Shown piece after piece: positions 4,303-58,329 of a DNA stretch of 64,000 bases; the stretch's first letter is position 1, and every line of letters starts with the position of its first letter. The notes under the pieces were generated by a model that was given only the letters and a program-made list of their open reading frames with translations, was not told where the DNA came from and made no database searches. This DNA is from Escherichia coli (lineage in GTDB: Bacteria; Pseudomonadota; Gammaproteobacteria; Enterobacterales; Enterobacteriaceae). The stretch is taken from assembly GCF_048403405.1 (NCBI RefSeq), contig NZ_CP183129.1; one strand, given 5' to 3'. The translations under genes and the position numbers were made by a program.

Positions 4303-4611
4303 CGACCAAAAACCTCTTTGCGTCACATTTTTACAACAATTATGGCAGAGAAGAATAATGCCATTGGAATGAAGAGAGTAACGAATGATTAAACTGGCTA
4401 AACCGAATGACGAAAAATTCTGGAAAACAGCACGCAATTTCGTGAAGTGATTATTTTCGTCCCTAAGGAAACCTCATAGGATGCCTGCGGGTGCCTGAGA
4501 CTTTCTGTTTTCAGGCTAACCGGGAATCAGAAAGACGAAGGCCCCGACCGATATTTCTATCAACTGTACTGCACCCATTTTGTTGGACGATGAAATGGAA
4601 TAGCCCCTAAT

Positions 4612-5133
4612 ATGTCAAAGCCAAAATACCCTTTTGAAAAGCGCCTTGAAGTCGTGAATCACTACTTCACAACTGATGATGGTTACAGGATCATCTCGGC
4701 ACGTTTTGGTGTCCCCCGAACCCAGGTCAGGACATGGGTTGCCCTCTATGAAAAACATGGAGAAAAAGGTTTAATTCCCAAACCTAAAGGCGTTAGTGCT
4801 GATCCAGAGTTGCGTATTAAGGTCGTGAAAGCTGTGATCGAGCAGCACATGTCCCTTAATCAGGCTGCTGCTCACTTTATGCTTGCTGGTAGTGGTTCTG
4901 TAGCCAGGTGGCTGAAGGTCTATGAAGAGCGCGGAGAAGCTGGTTTACGCGCGCTCAAGATTGGCACCAAAAGAAACATTGCAATATCAGTTGATCCAGA
5001 AAAAGCGGCATCAGCATTGGAGCTGTCAAAAGACCGACGCATTGAGGATCTTGAAAGGCAAGTTCGATTTCTTGAAACGCGGCTTATGTATCTAAAAAAG
5101 CTGAAAGCCTTAGCTCATCCCACGAAAAAGTAA
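4612..5133 (+). CDS. insJ: IS150 OrfA (InsJ), HTH DNA-binding protein
   Basis: 173 aa MSKPKYPFEKRLEVVNHYF..., recognised as IS150 InsJ. Confidence 0.9.
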   Translation: MSKPKYPFEKRLEVVNHYFTTDDGYRIISARFGVPRTQVRTWVALYEKHGEKGLIPKPKGVSADPELRIKVVKAVIEQHMSLNQAAAHFMLAGSGSVARWLKVYEERGEAGLRALKIGTKRNIAISVDPEKAASALELSKDRRIEDLERQVRFLETRLMYLKKLKALAHPTKK

Positions 5134-5981
5134 AAGTACTCAACGAGCTAAGGCAGTTTTATCCTCTTGATGAGCTTCTCAGGGCTGCGGAGATACCGCG
5201 CAGTACGTTTTATTACCATCTAAAGGCTCTCAGCAAGCCTGACAAGTATGCGGACGTTAAAAAGCGTATTGGTGAGATTTATCACGAGAATAGAGGCCGA
5301 TACGGATACCGTAGGGTAACGCTGTCTCTTCATCGAGAAGGGAAACAGATTAACCATAAAGCTGTTCAGCGCCTGATGGGAACCCTCTCACTTAAAGCAG
5401 CGATTAAGGTCAAGCGATACCGCTCTTACAGAGGAGAGGTAGGGCAAACCGCCCCTAATGTTCTCCAAAGAGATTTCAAGGCTACGCGGCCAAACGAGAA
5501 GTGGGTTACCGATGTTACTGAATTTGCAGTCAATGGGCGCAAGCTGTATTTGTCTCCAGTAATAGATCTCTTCAACAACGAAGTTATTTCTTACAGCCTT
5601 TCGGAAAGACCAGTGATGAACATGGTTGAGAATATGCTCGATCAGGCATTCAAAAAGCTTAATCCTCACGAGCATCCTGTTCTGCACTCTGACCAGGGAT
5701 GGCAGTATCGTATGAGAAGATATCAAAATATCCTTAAAGAACATGGTATTAAACAAAGCATGTCCAGAAAAGGCAATTGTCTGGATAATGCTGTGGTGGA
5801 GTGTTTCTTTGGAACCTTAAAGTCGGAGTGTTTTTATCTTGATGAGTTCAGTAATATAAGCGAACTGAAGGATGCTGTTACGGAATATATTGAATACTAC
5901 AACAGCAGAAGAATTAGCCTGAAATTAAAAGGTCTGACTCCAATTGAATATCGGAATCAGACCTATATGCCTCGTGTTTAA
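5094..5981 (+). CDS. insK: IS150 OrfB (InsK) DDE transposase, expressed by -1 frameshift from OrfA
   Basis: orfB frame is open from 5076 with no canonical start before 5376; slippery heptamer A AAA AAG at 5094-5100; catalytic domain in 5376-5981. Confidence 0.85.
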
Positions 5982-6023
5982 CTGTCCAACTTTTTGGGGT
6001 CAGTACACAACCGAGGCCAACGA

Positions 6024-6231
<208 letters not shown>

Positions 6232-6302
6232 GGGCAAGCGCGGGGATTTTCCCCGCGCATCTGACTAGCAGATTCATTTTCTCATGGCACCCCTTTTACA
6301 CT

Positions 6303-6476
6303 TCAGTTAGTGCATGTTTTTTTCGATGCACTAATAGAACCATCATTACAGACAAATTTGCCGCCTGCCGTACAGTGTGAGATCCCCCCTTTCGAACCAG
6401 AACAGGGTTTGCGCCCGGCATCGGCATAAAAGGAAACAAGCGTTCCCATAAACAAGATAAGTGCCAGTTTTTTCAT
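6303..6476 (-). CDS. ydcA: small secreted/lipoprotein-like protein YdcA
   Basis: translated by hand: MKKLALILFMGTLVSFYADAGRKPCSGSKGGISHCTAGGKFVCNDGSISASKKTCTN (57 aa); GGAGG SD. Confidence 0.85.
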   Translation of the reverse strand: MKKLALILFMGTLVSFYADAGRKPCSGSKGGISHCTAGGKFVCNDGSISASKKTCTN

Positions 6477-6720
6477 ATAACCTCCATGGTTTATCGAATC
6501 TTATGTTCGATTTGAACGTTATACGCTGGTTTATTTTGATACCGTTGATGAGATCAAAGATCGGGCGAATTGATTAAAGATAAGCCAGATGGACGTATGG
6601 ATAAGGATTATGGTTTTATTTGTCATACAAATAAATATAATAGGCGCTTCCGATGTAGACCCGTATTCTTCGCCTGTACCACGGGTCGGTTTTAGTACAG
6701 GCGTTTTCTTTAAATATCCT

Positions 6721-7251
6721 TCAGGAACGTTTACGCGGCATCATGCGTAGAAGTGTGTTGTCCTTCCAGAAATAGTGGTGTGCCAGTGCAGCCGCAGCGT
6801 GCAACCCGATGACAAAATATCCCAGATTCGCCAGCATTTCATGCCACGACTTTAAGCTATCAACCCGTTCGAAATTGGCCTCTGATGCATAAGGCATCGT
6901 CAAACCAAACGCAAACCACGGGTTGCCTCGGTTATACATCATCACCAAACCAATCACTGGCAGCGCAATAAACAGGAGATAAATCACCAAATGTCCCAAA
7001 TGCGCCAGTCCCGTCATCATCGGTTTTGGCTTAGGTATAATCGGCGGGGTTGGGTATTTCAGCCTTAACAAAAGACGAACGACCATCAGCACGAGAATTG
7101 ATATGCCACAGGAAACATGAATCATGTTGATGAGTGGCCGATCGCTACGTGGGAAGAAACCCCGAAACTCCATTGCGCAATACGCTGCGATAACCAGCAT
7201 AAAGACCAGCCAGTGAATGCTGATTTGTAACCTTGAGTATTTATTTCCCAT
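6721..7251 (-). CDS. cybB: cytochrome b561
   Basis: 176 aa from MGNKYSRLQ; conserved His ligands in TM helices; start refined from the track ORF. Confidence 0.9.
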   Translation of the reverse strand: MGNKYSRLQISIHWLVFMLVIAAYCAMEFRGFFPRSDRPLINMIHVSCGISILVLMVVRLLLRLKYPTPPIIPKPKPMMTGLAHLGHLVIYLLFIALPVIGLVMMYNRGNPWFAFGLTMPYASEANFERVDSLKSWHEMLANLGYFVIGLHAAAALAHHYFWKDNTLLRMMPRKRS

Positions 7252-7439: not shown

Positions 7440-8441
7440 ATGAGTAAAGTTGGTATTAATGGTTTTGGTCGTATCGGTCGACTGGTGTTGCGTCGATTAC
7501 TTGAAGTCAAAAGCAACATAGACATTGTTGCTATTAATGATCTCACTTCCCCAAAAATTCTCGCCTACCTGTTGAAACATGATTCAAACTACGGACCGTT
7601 CCCCTGGAGCGTTGATTTTACGGAAGATTCACTTATCGTTGATGGAAAAAGTATCGCGGTTTACGCCGAAAAAGAGGCTAAAAATATTCCGTGGAAAGCG
7701 AAAGGCGCAGAAATCATTGTCGAATGTACTGGCTTTTATACCTCCGCCGAGAAATCGCAGGCGCATCTTGATGCTGGTGCGAAGAAGGTGTTGATTTCCG
7801 CCCCTGCCGGTGAAATGAAAACCATCGTTTATAACGTCAATGACGACACACTGGATGGCAACGACACCATTGTTTCCGTGGCGTCATGCACCACTAATTG
7901 TCTTGCACCGATGGCCAAAGCCTTGCACGACAGTTTCGGAATAGAAGTCGGCACGATGACGACCATTCATGCCTATACCGGCACTCAGTCACTGGTGGAT
8001 GGCCCGCGTGGTAAAGATCTACGCGCTTCACGTGCAGCGGCAGAAAATATCATTCCCCACACTACGGGGGCGGCAAAAGCCATTGGTCTGGTGATCCCAG
8101 AACTGAGCGGCAAACTGAAAGGTCATGCACAACGCGTACCCGTGAAAACCGGTTCGGTGACTGAACTGGTGTCTATTCTTGGAAAAAAAGTGACTGCCGA
8201 AGAGGTGAACAACGCGCTTAAAAACGCGACAAACAATAACGAGTCATTTGGTTATACCGATGAAGAAATAGTCTCTTCCGATATCATTGGCAGCCATTTC
8301 GGTTCGGTGTTTGATGCCACGCAAACCGAAATTACCGCCGTGGGCGATTTACAACTGGTGAAAACGGTCGCCTGGTACGATAACGAATATGGCTTCGTCA
8401 CGCAGCTTATTCGCACCCTCGAAAAATTCGCTAAACTCTGA
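7440..8441 (+). CDS. gapC: glyceraldehyde-3-phosphate dehydrogenase C (intact)
   Basis: 333 aa, NAD-binding GxGRIGR, active site [10 protein letters not shown]; uninterrupted frame. Confidence 0.9.
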
Positions 8442-53350: not shown

Positions 53351-53378
53351 ATGCACTGGATAAGGATTATCCAATTCT

Positions 53379-53483
53379 AAAAAAAAGCCCGGACGACTGT
53401 TCGGGCTTGTCTCATTATTTGTTGGATAAACAGTAACAAGGGTCCAACAGAAAATAATCTTTGTGACAATAAAGGCATATAAC
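53379..53483 (-). ncRNA. micC: MicC small regulatory RNA (ompC/ompD repressor)
   Basis: minus-strand 5' GTTATATGCCTTTATTGTCACA... and 3' terminator AAGCCCGAACAGTCGTCCGGGCTT plus T-run match MicC as I recall it; divergent from ompN. Confidence 0.75.
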
Positions 53484-53711
53484 CCGCGAAGAATAACGCA
53501 TCACTATTTAAATGTATAATTTTTATTTTGTATATGTCGCCAATAATATATTCACCAAACTTATCATCATTTCCGTAGAATTATTTGATTAAGGTTTTAC
53601 TTAAGGCGTAACAAATGATATTTATCGGCTAACGGAACTTCTCCTTTAGGATGTTTTCACTCCCCAAAATGGGGATGAAAAGGCAAATAAAATAACTAAA
53701 GGATTTATTCA

Positions 53712-54845
53712 ATGAAAAGCAAAGTACTGGCATTTTTAATTCCTACCCTGCTCGCCGCAGGTGCTGCACATGCAGCCGAAGTTTATAATAAAGACGGCAA
53801 CAAATTAGATCTGTATGGCAAAGTTGATGGACTACATTATTTTTCTGATAATTCAGCGAAAGATGGCGACCAGAGCTATGCGCGTCTGGGTTTTAAAGGC
53901 GAAACCCAAATTAACGATCAACTTACTGGCTACGGTCAATGGGAATACAATATTCAGGCAAACAACACTGAATCCTCAAAAAACCAGTCATGGACCCGTC
54001 TGGCATTTGCCGGACTGAAATTTGCAGATTACGGTTCTTTCGATTACGGACGTAATTATGGCGTAATGTACGACATCGAAGGCTGGACCGATATGCTGCC
54101 TGAATTTGGCGGTGACTCTTATACCAATGCAGACAACTTTATGACTGGTCGTGCCAATGGCGTCGCGACTTATCGTAATACTGATTTCTTCGGTCTGGTA
54201 AATGGTCTGAACTTCGCGGTGCAGTATCAAGGTAACAACGAAGGTGCCAGTAATGGTCAGGAAGGCACCAACAACGGACGTGATGTTCGCCATGAAAACG
54301 GTGACGGCTGGGGTCTTTCCACAACATATGATTTAGGCATGGGCTTTAGCGCTGGTGCGGCATACACCTCTTCTGACCGCACCAATGACCAGGTTAACCA
54401 TACTGCGGCGGGTGGTGATAAAGCAGACGCGTGGACTGCTGGGCTAAAATACGATGCTAACAATATTTACCTGGCAACCATGTATTCAGAAACGCGTAAT
54501 ATGACCCCGTTTGGCGACAGCGATTATGCTGTTGCTAACAAAACCCAGAACTTTGAAGTTACTGCACAGTACCAGTTTGATTTTGGTCTGCGTCCGGCAG
54601 TCTCTTTCCTGATGTCTAAAGGCCGTGACCTGCACGCTGCCGGTGGTGCAGACAACCCGGCAGGTGTTGATGATAAAGATCTGGTTAAATACGCCGATGT
54701 TGGCGCGACTTACTATTTCAACAAAAATATGTCCACCTACGTTGACTATAAAATCAACCTGTTGGATGAAGATGACAGCTTCTACGCTGCCAACGGCATC
54801 TCTACCGATGATATTGTCGCTTTAGGTCTGGTTTATCAGTTCTAA
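53712..54845 (+). CDS. ompN: outer membrane porin N
   Basis: 377 aa general porin with signal peptide and C-terminal YQF. Confidence 0.9.
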
Positions 54846-54853
54846 ATCCTCCT

Positions 54854-54877
54854 GCCCGCTGTTATGGCGGGCTTTTT
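54854..54877 (+). terminator. rho-independent terminator of ompN
   Basis: GCCCGC-tgttatg-GCGGGC followed by TTTTT. Confidence 0.8.
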
Positions 54878-54904
54878 CTGCTTATTCTTCCTCCTTTGAT
54901 CTAA

Positions 54905-55420
<516 letters not shown>

Positions 55421-55427
55421 CACTAAC

Positions 55428-55452
55428 GCCCGCACATTGCTGCGGGCTTTTT
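55428..55452 (+). terminator. rho-independent terminator of uspF
   Basis: GCCCGCA-cattgc-TGCGGGC followed by TTTTT. Confidence 0.8.
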
Positions 55453-55595
55453 GATTCATTTCGCAAATGTGCTGACATTTTCCCCTCTAATCCGTACCAT
55501 ACACGCCACAGTTTTTATATCAGATTTCTTATGCTGGGCGTTCCGGCATGACGCATACTCTTCTGATGCCATATAACGAATTGAGTCGCTTTTAA

Positions 55596-56531
55596 ATGTC
55601 GCAAAATCAAGAAATTAGTAAGAAAGAACAATACAACCTGAACAAATTACAAAAACGTCTGCGTCGTAACGTGGGCGAAGCCATTGCTGACTTCAATATG
55701 ATTGAAGAAGGCGATCGCATCATGGTTTGCCTCTCCGGGGGTAAAGACAGCTATACCATGCTGGAGATTCTGCGCAATTTGCAGCAAAGCGCGCCAATCA
55801 ATTTTTCGCTGGTGGCTGTCAACCTCGATCAAAAACAACCGGGCTTCCCGGAACACGTTCTGCCCGAGTATCTTGAAAAGCTGGGCGTTGAGTACAAGAT
55901 TGTGGAAGAGAACACTTACGGTATCGTGAAAGAGAAGATTCCGGAGGGCAAAACCACTTGCTCACTGTGTTCTCGTCTTCGTCGCGGTATCCTTTATCGT
56001 ACCGCAACGGAACTGGGAGCGACGAAGATCGCGCTGGGTCACCATCGTGACGATACCCTGCAAACGTTGTTCTTAAATATGTTCTACGGCGGCAAGATGA
56101 AAGGTATGCCTCCGAAACTGATGAGCGATGATGGCAAACATATCGTGATTCGTCCGCTGGCCTACTGCCGCGAGAAAGATATTCAGCGTTTTGCCGATGC
56201 AAAAGCGTTCCCGATTATTCCGTGCAACCTGTGCGGTTCACAGCCTAACCTGCAACGTCAGGTGATTGCTGACATGTTGCGTGACTGGGATAAACGTTAT
56301 CCGGGGCGTATCGAGACGATGTTCAGCGCGATGCAGAATGTGGTGCCGTCGCATCTGTGCGATACCAACCTGTTCGATTTCAAAGGCATTACCCACGGTT
56401 CTGAAGTGGTTAACGGGGGTGATCTGGCGTTTGATCGCGAAGAGCTCCCTCTACAACCGGCGGGTTGGCAGCCTGAAGAAGATGAAAATCAGTTGGATGA
56501 GTTACGACTGAATGTGGTTGAAGTGAAATAA
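55596..56531 (+). CDS. ttcA: tRNA 2-thiocytidine(32) synthetase
   Basis: 311 aa with PP-loop SGGKDS. Confidence 0.9.
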
Positions 56532-56578
56532 CCAGGATAGCGCCCGATGCGCAAGCTTATCGGGCTACTCTTATGGAG

Positions 56579-56611
56579 GCCGGATAAGACGCGGCCAGCG
56601 TCGCATCCGGC
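56579..56611. repeat. REP (repetitive extragenic palindrome) element
   Basis: GCCGGATAAGACGCGGCCAGCGTCGCATCCGGC matches the REP consensus; convergent intergenic site. Confidence 0.6.
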
Positions 56612-56659
56612 AATCCCGAAGAAGATGTTTACTCTTGCACCCTGCAATTCAACATTTCA

Positions 56660-58033
56660 TTATTTTAATAACCGCACCCGGCACGTTTTTCCTTTAATCT
56701 TCCCGCCCTGTAACTGTTTCCATGCTTTATGAGCAACAGCCTGACGCACCGCGACATAGACATGCGCCGGATGCACGGCGATTTTGCCAATATCTGCGCC
56801 ATCAAGCCCGATATCTCCTGTCAGCGCACCTAATACATCACCCGGGCGCATTTTGGCTTTTTTCCCGCCATCGATACATAACGTTGCCATTTCGGCTTCC
56901 AGCGGCACAATGGAACTATTAACTGGTGGCGTTTGCCAGTTAAGTTTTATCTGCAACATGTCAGAAATGATATTGGCCCGCTGTGCTTCTTCCGGGGCAC
57001 AGAAACTGATCGCCAGACCGCTATTTCCTGCACGCGCTGTACGACCGATGCGATGTACATGAACTTCAGGATCCCACGCCAGCTCAAAGTTCACCACCAG
57101 CTCAAGCGATTTAATATCCAGACCTCGCGCAGCAACATCAGTCGCAACCAGTACACGGGCGCTACCGTTAGCAAAACGTACCAGGGTCTGATCGCGATCG
57201 CGTTGCTCCAGATCGCCGTGTAACGACAATGCACTTTGCCCTACTTCATTCAGCGCGTCGCAGACAGCCTGGCAATCTTTTTTGGTATTGCAAAACACCA
57301 CACAAGAGGATGGCTGATGCAAGCTTAATAACCGTTGCAACAGAGGAATTTTGCCTTTACTGGATGTCTCATAAAATTGTTGTTCAATGGGTGGCAAAGC
57401 ATCTGTTGAGTCAATTTCAATCGCTAAAGGATCGCGTTGCACTCGTCCGCTGATTGCGGCGATGGCTTCCGGCCAGGTTGCCGAAAACAGAAGCGTCTGT
57501 CGAGATGCAGGCGCAAAACGGATGACATCATCAATGGCATCGCTAAATCCCATATCCAGCATGCGGTCGGCCTCATCCATCACCAAAGTATTCAGCGCAT
57601 CCAGTGATACCGTGCCTTTTTGCAAGTGATCCAGCAAACGACCCGGCGTTGCCACGATAATATGCGGCGCATGTTGCAACGAATCACGCTGCAAACCGAA
57701 CGGTTGACCACCGCACAACGTCAAAATTTTAGTATTTGGTAGAAAACGCGCCAGCCGACGCAATTCACCTGCCACCTGATCCGCCAGTTCACGCGTAGGA
57801 CACAGCACTAAAGCCTGGGTTTGAAATAGCGACGCATCAATTTGCTGTAACAAGCCGAGGCCAAAAGCCGCCGTTTTGCCGCTGCCGGTTTTCGCCTGCA
57901 CGCGAACATCTTTTCCGGCAAGGATCGCCGGAAGCGCGGCGGCCTGCACCGGCGTCATGGTTAAATAACCCAACTCATCAAGGTTCGTGAGTTGGGCGGG
58001 AGGCAAAACATTCAGGGTAGAAAAAGCGGTCAC
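56660..58033 (-). CDS. dbpA: ATP-dependent DEAD-box RNA helicase DbpA
   Basis: 457 aa; AKTGSGKT and DEAD motifs; GTG start. Confidence 0.95.
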   Translation of the reverse strand: MTAFSTLNVLPPAQLTNLDELGYLTMTPVQAAALPAILAGKDVRVQAKTGSGKTAAFGLGLLQQIDASLFQTQALVLCPTRELADQVAGELRRLARFLPNTKILTLCGGQPFGLQRDSLQHAPHIIVATPGRLLDHLQKGTVSLDALNTLVMDEADRMLDMGFSDAIDDVIRFAPASRQTLLFSATWPEAIAAISGRVQRDPLAIEIDSTDALPPIEQQFYETSSKGKIPLLQRLLSLHQPSSCVVFCNTKKDCQAVCDALNEVGQSALSLHGDLEQRDRDQTLVRFANGSARVLVATDVAARGLDIKSLELVVNFELAWDPEVHVHRIGRTARAGNSGLAISFCAPEEAQRANIISDMLQIKLNWQTPPVNSSIVPLEAEMATLCIDGGKKAKMRPGDVLGALTGDIGLDGADIGKIAVHPAHVYVAVRQAVAHKAWKQLQGGKIKGKTCRVRLLK

Positions 58034-58062
58034 AATCTATTCTCGTGGTCATCGACGCAAAG

Positions 58063-58236
58063 TCAGCAGGCGCGTATCCTCGCAGATCTACGCTCACGAT
58101 GCGACAATTTAATCGGTTCTTCATCGGGTGGTGGGTCAGGCATGGGTTGCGGGCGAGGGATCGGATCGGGCACTGGAACAGGATCGCCAGGAATCGGTTC
58201 AGGGACAGGAATTTGCAAATAAATAAGTGTCGTCAT
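58063..58236 (-). CDS. proline-rich small protein (57 aa), unassigned
   Basis: translated by hand: MTTLIYLQIPVPEPIPGDPVPVPDPIPRPQPMPDPPPDEEPIKLSHRERRSARIRAC; GGAGGG SD 4 nt before ATG; stop 30 nt before the dbpA start. Confidence 0.45.
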   Translation of the reverse strand: MTTLIYLQIPVPEPIPGDPVPVPDPIPRPQPMPDPPPDEEPIKLSHRERRSARIRAC

Positions 58237-58329
58237 ATTTCCCTCCGGTCATTGGGTGGACTCTTAAAGGGTAGACGCTGATAAATAACAGGCAAAATAA
58301 ATATCCTCCGGCATAGCCGGAGGTTTTTC

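What the first reader, a model, noticed from the sequence alone, without database searches (positions are those of the whole stretch)
6671..6711. Orphan plus-strand terminator-like hairpin beside the cybB stop
CGCCTGTAC-N15-GTACAGGCG followed by TTTTCTTT is a textbook intrinsic terminator on the plus strand, but the only plus-strand gene upstream is hokB, 440 nt away, and ydcA lies between on the other strand. It does not serve cybB, which has no U-run on its strand. It could end an unannotated plus-strand transcript antisense to ydcA.
Basis: seen in the sequence. Interest (0 to 1): 0.2.

Follow-up and report, generated by a model that had tools for sequence, protein, structure and literature searches.

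The report
Terminator of the known sRNA RydC
The "orphan" hairpin is the transcription terminator and 3' half of RydC, a well-studied 64-nucleotide E. coli regulatory RNA that has its own promoter just upstream, so the feature is real but ordinary.

Summary
CGCCTGTAC-N15-GTACAGGCG followed by TTTTCTTT lies at 6671-6711 on the plus strand, and sites of this quality are about 40 times more frequent in the window than in shuffles. It is not an orphan. It is the 3' half of the small RNA gene rydC (window 6647-6710/6711, plus strand). Rfam RF00505 matches full length at 92.5 bits against a gathering score of 48. K-12 MG1655 annotates rydC (b4597) at the same place, and the window is 100% identical to K-12 there. 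A TATAAT -10 box lies at 6636-6641. In ten enterobacterial lineages all 9 hairpin pairs stay paired, 4 of them through changes on both sides. The unusually long 15-nt loop carries one arm of RydC's pseudoknot (ACGGGTC pairs with GACCCGT at 6658-6664). No cybB-strand 3' end is reported at the hairpin. RydC is divergent from ydcA, not antisense to it. Verdict: already known, low interest. Side note: a 15/15 match to the published YieP binding motif lies at 6618-6632, next to the -10 box.

The parts
6647..6711 (+). rydC gene: the 64-65-nt Hfq-dependent small RNA RydC
   Evidence: Rfam RF00505 matches 6647-6710, model positions 1-64 of 64, 92.5 bits against gathering 48. K-12 ncRNA rydC b4597 lies at 1491442-1491506. 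The window is 100% identical to K-12 over the gene.
6636..6641 (+). -10 box TATAAT of the sigma-70 rydC promoter; there is no recognisable -35
   Evidence: Sequence. It is identical in K-12 and kept in 9 of 10 homologues, with TATACT in C. koseri. PMC11340327 describes a perfect -10, no obvious -35, and the same C. koseri exception.
6618..6632 (.). Palindrome ATTTGTCATACAAAT, the probable YieP repressor operator at -29 to -15 (inferred)
   Evidence: Its reverse complement ATTTGTATGACAAAT matches the published YieP ChIP-exo motif atTTGTaTGAcaAAT at 15 of 15 positions. The arms are conserved across homologues. YieP represses rydC about 20-fold. rydC and ydcA are among the YieP ChIP-exo target genes. 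There is a single copy in the window.
6647..6656 (+). Single-stranded 5' seed of RydC (CUUCCGAUGU), which base-pairs with target mRNAs such as cfa
   Evidence: These positions are unpaired in the Rfam consensus structure. The seed role is described in PMC4337610. Its invariance in my alignment was forced by the search pattern and is not evidence.
6657..6664 (+). Pseudoknot helix S1, 5' arm (AGACCCGU, RydC nt 11-18)
   Evidence: It is paired with model positions 35-42 in the Rfam consensus. 98.8% of cells are paired in 10 lineages; the only exception is A11/G42 in the window sequence, which K-12 shares.
6681..6688 (+). Pseudoknot helix S1, 3' arm (ACGGGUCG, nt 35-42), lying inside the 15-nt loop of the terminator hairpin
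   Evidence: This arm explains the long loop. It was not constrained by the search pattern and is nearly invariant.
6671..6679 (+). Terminator hairpin / pseudoknot helix S2, 5' arm (CGCCUGUAC, nt 25-33)
   Evidence: All 9 pairs are 100% paired in 10 lineages, and 4 pairs show changes on both sides.
6695..6703 (+). Terminator hairpin / helix S2, 3' arm (GUACAGGCG, nt 49-57)
6704..6711 (+). U-rich tail UUUUCUUU: the termination tract and the part that binds the proximal face of Hfq
   Evidence: Sequence. Term-seq 3' ends at K-12 1491443 and 1491442 equal window 6710 and 6711. The Hfq-RydC crystal structure shows U61, U62, C63 and U64 stacking on F42 (PMC4337610).

Best explanation
The hairpin and T-tract at 6671-6711 are the Rho-independent terminator of rydC. 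They also form helix S2 and the Hfq-binding U-tail of the mature RydC RNA. Transcription starts at 6647 from a sigma-70 promoter with a perfect TATAAT (6636-6641) and no -35, and it ends at 6710/6711, giving a 64-65-nt RNA. In that RNA the 15-nt loop of the terminator hairpin (ACGGGUC, 6681-6687) pairs with GACCCGU at 6658-6664. The result is a compact pseudoknot that leaves the 5' seed CUUCCGAUGU free. Hfq holds the U-tail on its proximal face and two UU steps on its rim, and it presents the seed to target mRNAs. Reported effects are activation and stabilisation of the long cfa mRNA isoform, modest repression of trpE and pheA, and reduced csgD expression. The identity of the gene, both helices, the promoter and the 3' ends are shown here or in papers I read. 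Expression and regulation in this particular strain are inferred from 100% sequence identity to K-12.
For: Rfam RF00505 matches full length at 6647-6710 (+), 92.5 bits against gathering 48, E = 5e-17. K-12 MG1655 annotates ncRNA rydC b4597 between cybB and ydcA on the opposite strand. The window is identical to K-12 from 23 nt upstream of the start (window 6624, -10 box included) to at least 6740; the last difference is inside the YieP palindrome. The region is present in 5415 of 5426 complete E. coli genomes. In 10 lineages (Escherichia, Salmonella arizonae, Citrobacter) helix S2 is 100% paired and 4 of its 9 pairs change on both sides. Sliding the partners by 1-3 columns drops pairing to 26-44%. 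Sites of this quality number 3 in the window against 0.07 in shuffles. K-12 Term-seq reports 'primary' rydC 3' ends at 1491443 and 1491442 with very high scores, equal to window 6710 and 6711. PMC4337610 states that the U-rich tail together with a strong hairpin facilitates Rho-independent termination, and it describes the pseudoknot and the Hfq contacts. PMC11340327 describes the promoter, the synteny with cybB and ydcA, and repression by YieP.
Against: Very little. Nested folding of the 65 nt gives an unremarkable z-score of -0.69, which is expected because such folding cannot represent a pseudoknot. A 15-nt loop is long for an intrinsic terminator, but the pseudoknot arm inside it explains that. 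RydC is barely detectable in wild-type cells under standard growth, and nothing was measured in the strain the window comes from. My homologue set is small (10 lineages), and the search pattern fixed the seed and the S1 5' arm, so those columns carry no independent weight.
Confidence: 0.97

Rival explanations
1. One reading: the hairpin ends a longer, unannotated plus-strand transcript that starts at or beyond hokB and runs antisense through ydcA.
For: hokB (6082-6231) is on the same strand, and no strong terminator was called between it and 6671 by the simple scan. Any read-through that reached this point would probably stop here.
Against: A dedicated promoter and start site at 6636-6647 account for the RNA. 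The Term-seq 3' ends are classed as primary rydC ends. The conservation unit in other species is the 64-nt RNA plus its core promoter, while the 5' neighbour differs between species. In this strain an IS150 copy (about 4566-6007) separates the first part of the hokB leader from the hokB reading frame, so normal hokB transcription is doubtful (this last step is inference).
Confidence: 0.02
2. The hairpin is a bidirectional terminator that also ends the convergent cybB mRNA (minus strand, stop codon at 6721-6723).
For: The same stem forms in the minus-strand RNA only 17 nt after the cybB stop codon. The region folds at -20.9 kcal/mol with z = -2.56. Convergent gene pairs often share terminators (general knowledge).
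Against: On the minus strand the stem is followed by AAGAAUACGGG, with no U-tract. In the two Term-seq lists I saw, no cybB-strand 3' end appears between K-12 1491416 and 1492144. The only cybB-strand end lies inside the reading frame at 1491416 (window 6737), before the hairpin.
Confidence: 0.05
3. A chance inverted repeat with no function.
For: None beyond the weak nested-folding z-score.
Against: Shuffle statistics, compensatory changes across genera, the Rfam score and the mapped 3' ends.
Confidence: 0.005

Closest known systems
RydC sRNA (Rfam RF00505; E. coli K-12 rydC, b4597)
   Same: Everything tested agrees. The sequence is identical to K-12. The match to the model is full length. The position is the same, convergent with cybB and divergent from ydcA. 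The TATAAT promoter, the pseudoknot helices S1 and S2, the U-tail and the mapped 3' ends all match.
   Different: Nothing in the RNA itself. The strain differs from K-12 only upstream, with 5 substitutions in the 87 nt before the start site, one of them inside the YieP palindrome (G in the window, A in K-12 at window 6622), and in neighbouring features such as the IS150 at hokB/sokB and an intact gapC.
Canonical Rho-independent (intrinsic) terminators of Hfq-dependent sRNAs
   Same: A G+C-rich 9-bp stem directly followed by a U-rich tract that also serves as the binding site for the proximal face of Hfq.
   Different: The loop is 15 nt instead of the usual 3-8, because it carries one arm of a pseudoknot. 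The U-tract is interrupted by a C (UUUUCUUU).

Membership tests
RydC (Rfam RF00505) | Score against the family covariance model at or above the curated gathering threshold, over the full length | tested here: met
   92.5 bits against gathering 48; model positions 1-64 of 64; window 6647-6710, plus strand.
RydC (Rfam RF00505) | Pseudoknot helix S1 (nt 11-18 with nt 35-42) | tested here: met
   7 of 8 pairs are standard in the window; the exception, A11/G42, is shared with K-12. 98.8% of cells are paired across 10 lineages. There is no covariation because the helix is invariant.
RydC (Rfam RF00505) | Helix S2 / terminator stem (nt 25-33 with nt 49-57), kept by compensatory change | tested here: met
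   All 9 pairs are 100% paired, and 4 pairs change on both sides. 0 of 500 shuffles reach the observed covariation score.
RydC (Rfam RF00505) | Genomic context: next to and convergent with cybB; in E. coli, ydcA on the 5' side | tested here: met
   cybB lies at 6721-7251 (-) and ydcA at 6303-6476 (-). K-12 has the same layout, and PMC11340327 describes it.
RydC (Rfam RF00505) | Own sigma-70 promoter with a perfect TATAAT and a start site at nt 1 | tested here: met
   TATAAT at 6636-6641, 5 nt before 6647. It is identical to K-12. Literature description. The start site itself is taken from the annotation and the literature, not measured here.
RydC (Rfam RF00505) | Hfq binding and regulation of cfa and other targets | not testable with these tools
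   Shown for the identical K-12 and the Salmonella RNA in PMC4337610 and PMC11340327. Inferred here from sequence identity.
Intrinsic (Rho-independent) terminator | G+C-rich stem-loop immediately followed by a U-tract on the transcribed strand | tested here: met
   9-bp stem with 6 G-C pairs, followed by UUUUCUUU.
Intrinsic (Rho-independent) terminator | RNA 3' ends mapping within the U-tract | tested here: met
   Published K-12 Term-seq 3' ends at 1491443 and 1491442, equal to window 6710 and 6711. The data are from K-12, not from this strain.
Bidirectional terminator (would also serve cybB) | U-tract after the stem on the second strand as well | tested here: not met
   On the minus strand the stem is followed by AAGAAUACGGG. 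No cybB-strand 3' end is reported at the hairpin.

The most novel reading that the evidence does not exclude
Because the hairpin lacks a U-tract on the cybB strand, cybB transcripts may read through the whole rydC gene. That would produce an RNA perfectly complementary to RydC, which could sponge or destabilise it. Equally, convergent transcription could make rydC and cybB expression interfere with each other. The unexplained cybB-strand 3' end inside the reading frame at window 6737, 26 nt from the RydC 3' end, might be a trace of such interference. Nothing I ran tests this.
Probability: 0.05. Interest if true: 0.3.

Novelty: already known. Interest (0 to 1): 0.05.

Why it matters
This finding matters little as a discovery. 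RydC has been known since the first half of the 2000s, has a crystal structure in complex with Hfq, has defined targets (cfa, trpE, pheA, csgD) and has a known repressor (YieP). The practical lesson is about annotation. Routine RefSeq/PGAP annotation of E. coli genomes omits rydC, so a reader working from protein-coding genes alone will see its terminator as orphan. A covariance-model scan resolves such cases at once. The one small addition from this work is that the rydC core promoter carries an exact match to the published YieP binding motif, which offers a concrete, testable operator for the repression reported in 2024.

Tried and rejected
1. **Generic terminator and promoter scan.** It did not report this hairpin because its loop limit is 8 nt, and it did not report the rydC promoter because there is no -35. 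It is not informative here.

2. **Nested MFE folding of the 65-nt RNA.** The z-score of -0.69 looks like no structure, but the real fold is a pseudoknot that this method cannot represent. I relied on covariation instead.

3. **Terminator for cybB, or a bidirectional terminator.** Rejected. There is no U-tract on that strand and no cybB-strand 3' end at the hairpin in Term-seq.

4. **End of a hokB read-through transcript antisense to ydcA.** Rejected as the main explanation. rydC has its own promoter and start site, and IS150 cuts the hokB leader in this strain.

5. **Genome-collection scan with the seed pattern.** It gave only 13 loci. Three of them (L006, L009, L015, from unrelated phyla) match the 18-mer by chance and lack the rest of the RNA, and one (L013) is cut off by the end of the locus. 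The pattern missed more divergent homologues such as Klebsiella and Enterobacter, so the covariation sample is small.

6. **Supplement of the YieP paper.** It holds no table of binding-site coordinates, so I could not confirm that the ChIP-exo peak lies exactly on the palindrome.

Full report
**Observation.** CGCCTGTAC lies at 6671-6679, a 15-nt loop at 6680-6694, GTACAGGCG at 6695-6703 and TTTTCTTT at 6704-6711. The plus-strand RNA folds into this 9-bp hairpin (centroid -13.8 kcal/mol). A custom scan for perfect 9-bp G+C-rich stems (loop 3-20) followed by at least 6 T in 8 found three sites on both strands of the window, this one included. The mean in 60 dinucleotide-preserving shuffles was 0.07. 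The feature is real and more than chance would give. The built-in terminator scan missed it only because it allows loops of 3-8 nt.

**What it is.** A scan of the whole window against Rfam gave a full-length match to RF00505 (RydC) at 6647-6710 on the plus strand, 92.5 bits against a gathering score of 48. The hairpin is the 3' half of that match. K-12 MG1655 annotates the ncRNA rydC (b4597) at 1491442-1491506, between cybB and ydcA and on the strand opposite to both. That is the same layout as in the window, where cybB lies at 6721-7251 (-) and ydcA at 6303-6476 (-). The window is 100% identical to K-12 from 23 nt upstream of the start site (window 6624, -10 box included) through the end of the gene and on to at least 6740; the last difference lies inside the palindrome at 6622. 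The RefSeq/PGAP record that is identical to the window over 6230-6730 lists hokB, yncP, ydcA and cybB but not rydC. This probably explains why the hairpin looked orphan. The region is present in 5415 of 5426 complete E. coli genomes.

**Anatomy.**
- **Promoter:** TATAAT lies at 6636-6641, 5 nt before the start at 6647, and there is no -35. PMC11340327 describes this promoter the same way.
- **Seed:** RydC nt 1-10 (6647-6656) are unpaired.
- **Helix S1:** nt 11-18 (6657-6664, AGACCCGU) pair with nt 35-42 (6681-6688, ACGGGUCG), which lie inside the loop of the terminator hairpin.
- **Helix S2:**
- **U-tail:** nt 58-65.

The 15-nt loop, unusual for a terminator, is therefore explained: it holds one arm of a pseudoknot. 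PMC4337610, the Hfq-RydC crystal structure paper, states that the U-rich tail together with a strong hairpin facilitates Rho-independent termination. It also reports that the tail sits in the proximal-face channel of Hfq, and that the pseudoknot is needed for stability in vivo.

**Independent test by comparison.** I searched one genome per species for the 5' seed plus the S1 5' arm only, so that the hairpin was not constrained. Ten enterobacterial loci carry the whole element. Three hits from unrelated phyla match only the 18-mer and are chance. On the alignment, helix S2 is 100% paired in all ten lineages. Four of its nine pairs are maintained through changes on both sides: G-C/A-U at pair 2, and U-A/C-G, A-U/G-C and C-G/U-A at pairs 7-9. 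No shuffle of 500 reached the observed covariation score, and sliding the partners by 1-3 columns dropped pairing to 26-44%. Helix S1 is invariant apart from A11/G42 in the window sequence, which K-12 shares, so it says nothing either way by covariation. The invariance of the seed and the S1 5' arm was imposed by my search pattern and is not evidence.

The supplement of Adams et al. 2021 (PMC7815308) lists Term-seq 3' ends at K-12 1491443 and 1491442 on the rydC strand. They are classed as primary rydC ends and have very high scores. Using the K-12 annotation (1491506 equals window 6647), these are window 6710 and 6711. The flanking sequence printed in the table matches the window. In the same lists no cybB-strand 3' end appears at the hairpin. 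The only one is inside the cybB reading frame at 1491416 (window 6737).

The transcript is not antisense to ydcA. It starts at 6647, which is 170 nt beyond the ydcA start codon at 6476, and it runs away from ydcA, so the two genes are divergent. A read-through from hokB is not needed either. In this strain it is also unlikely, because an IS150 copy (about 4566-6007, flanked by a duplicated CAAC) splits the hokB leader.

**Mechanism.** RNA polymerase starts at 6647 and terminates at the S2 hairpin and U-tract. The released 64-65-nt RNA folds into the S1/S2 pseudoknot, binds Hfq through its U-tail and UU steps, and uses its free 5' seed to pair with mRNAs. It activates and stabilises cfa, modestly represses trpE and pheA, and reduces csgD expression. 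The gene's identity, helices, promoter and ends are shown. Activity in this particular strain is inferred from sequence identity.

**Side result.** The palindrome ATTTGTCATACAAAT at 6618-6632 (-29 to -15) reads ATTTGTATGACAAAT on the other strand. That matches the YieP ChIP-exo motif atTTGTaTGAcaAAT at 15 of 15 positions (PMC7642389). Its arms are conserved in all ten lineages, and C. koseri carries the centre in the opposite orientation. YieP represses rydC about 20-fold. The 2020 paper lists rydC and ydcA among its ChIP-exo targets. The 2024 paper names no operator and reports that no known sites were found. A direct operator overlapping the promoter spacer is therefore a well-supported inference, but I could not confirm the exact peak position.

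**Verdict.** The hairpin is nevertheless the well-known RydC terminator and pseudoknot helix. It is already known and of low interest.

Noticed in passing
window 6618-6632: The palindrome ATTTGTCATACAAAT sits 3 nt upstream of the rydC -10 box. Its reverse complement matches the published YieP ChIP-exo motif (atTTGTaTGAcaAAT) at 15 of 15 positions, and it is conserved in Escherichia, Salmonella and Citrobacter homologues. It is probably the direct YieP operator. The 2024 paper that showed YieP repression of rydC names no site.
   Followed up: partly
window about 4566-6007 (flanks 4489-4565 and 6008-6081): An IS150 copy (TGTACTG...CAGTACA, with CAAC duplicated on both sides) is inserted in the sokB/hokB leader region about 75 nt upstream of the hokB start codon. 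577 of 5426 complete E. coli genomes share this arrangement. The Rfam 'sok' hit at 4489-4641 matches well only up to the IS end; the rest of it is aligned poorly through IS150 sequence.
   Followed up: partly
window 6737 (minus strand), near the small hairpin at 6730-6751: K-12 Term-seq lists a weak cybB-strand 3' end inside the cybB reading frame, 14 nt before the stop codon (K-12 1491416). It lies 26 nt from the convergent RydC 3' end. The cause is unknown; it could be processing, or interference from convergent transcription.
   Followed up: no
window 7440-8441 (+): gapC is an intact 333-aa reading frame here and is annotated as a type I glyceraldehyde-3-phosphate dehydrogenase in the strain identical to the window over 6230-6730. 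In K-12 MG1655 gapC is a pseudogene.
   Followed up: partly
window 53371-59126: MicC (53371-53486, -), STnc490 (58873-58996, -) and FnrS (59009-59126, -) all pass the Rfam gathering scores. MicC and FnrS are about 5.5 kb apart here but 28 kb apart in K-12, where the 23-kb Rac cryptic prophage lies between them. The window's strain therefore appears to lack Rac.
   Followed up: partly
window 6209-6277 (-): A 22-aa ORF (MNLLVRCAGKIPALALTWTCRP) occupies the position of the annotated small protein YncP. It overlaps the 3' end of hokB on the opposite strand.
   Followed up: no
window 6688 (RydC nt 42): The window and K-12 have G at nt 42, which gives an A11/G42 mismatch at the outer end of pseudoknot helix S1. 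All nine other lineages in my alignment, including three other Escherichia, have U, which gives an A-U pair.
   Followed up: no
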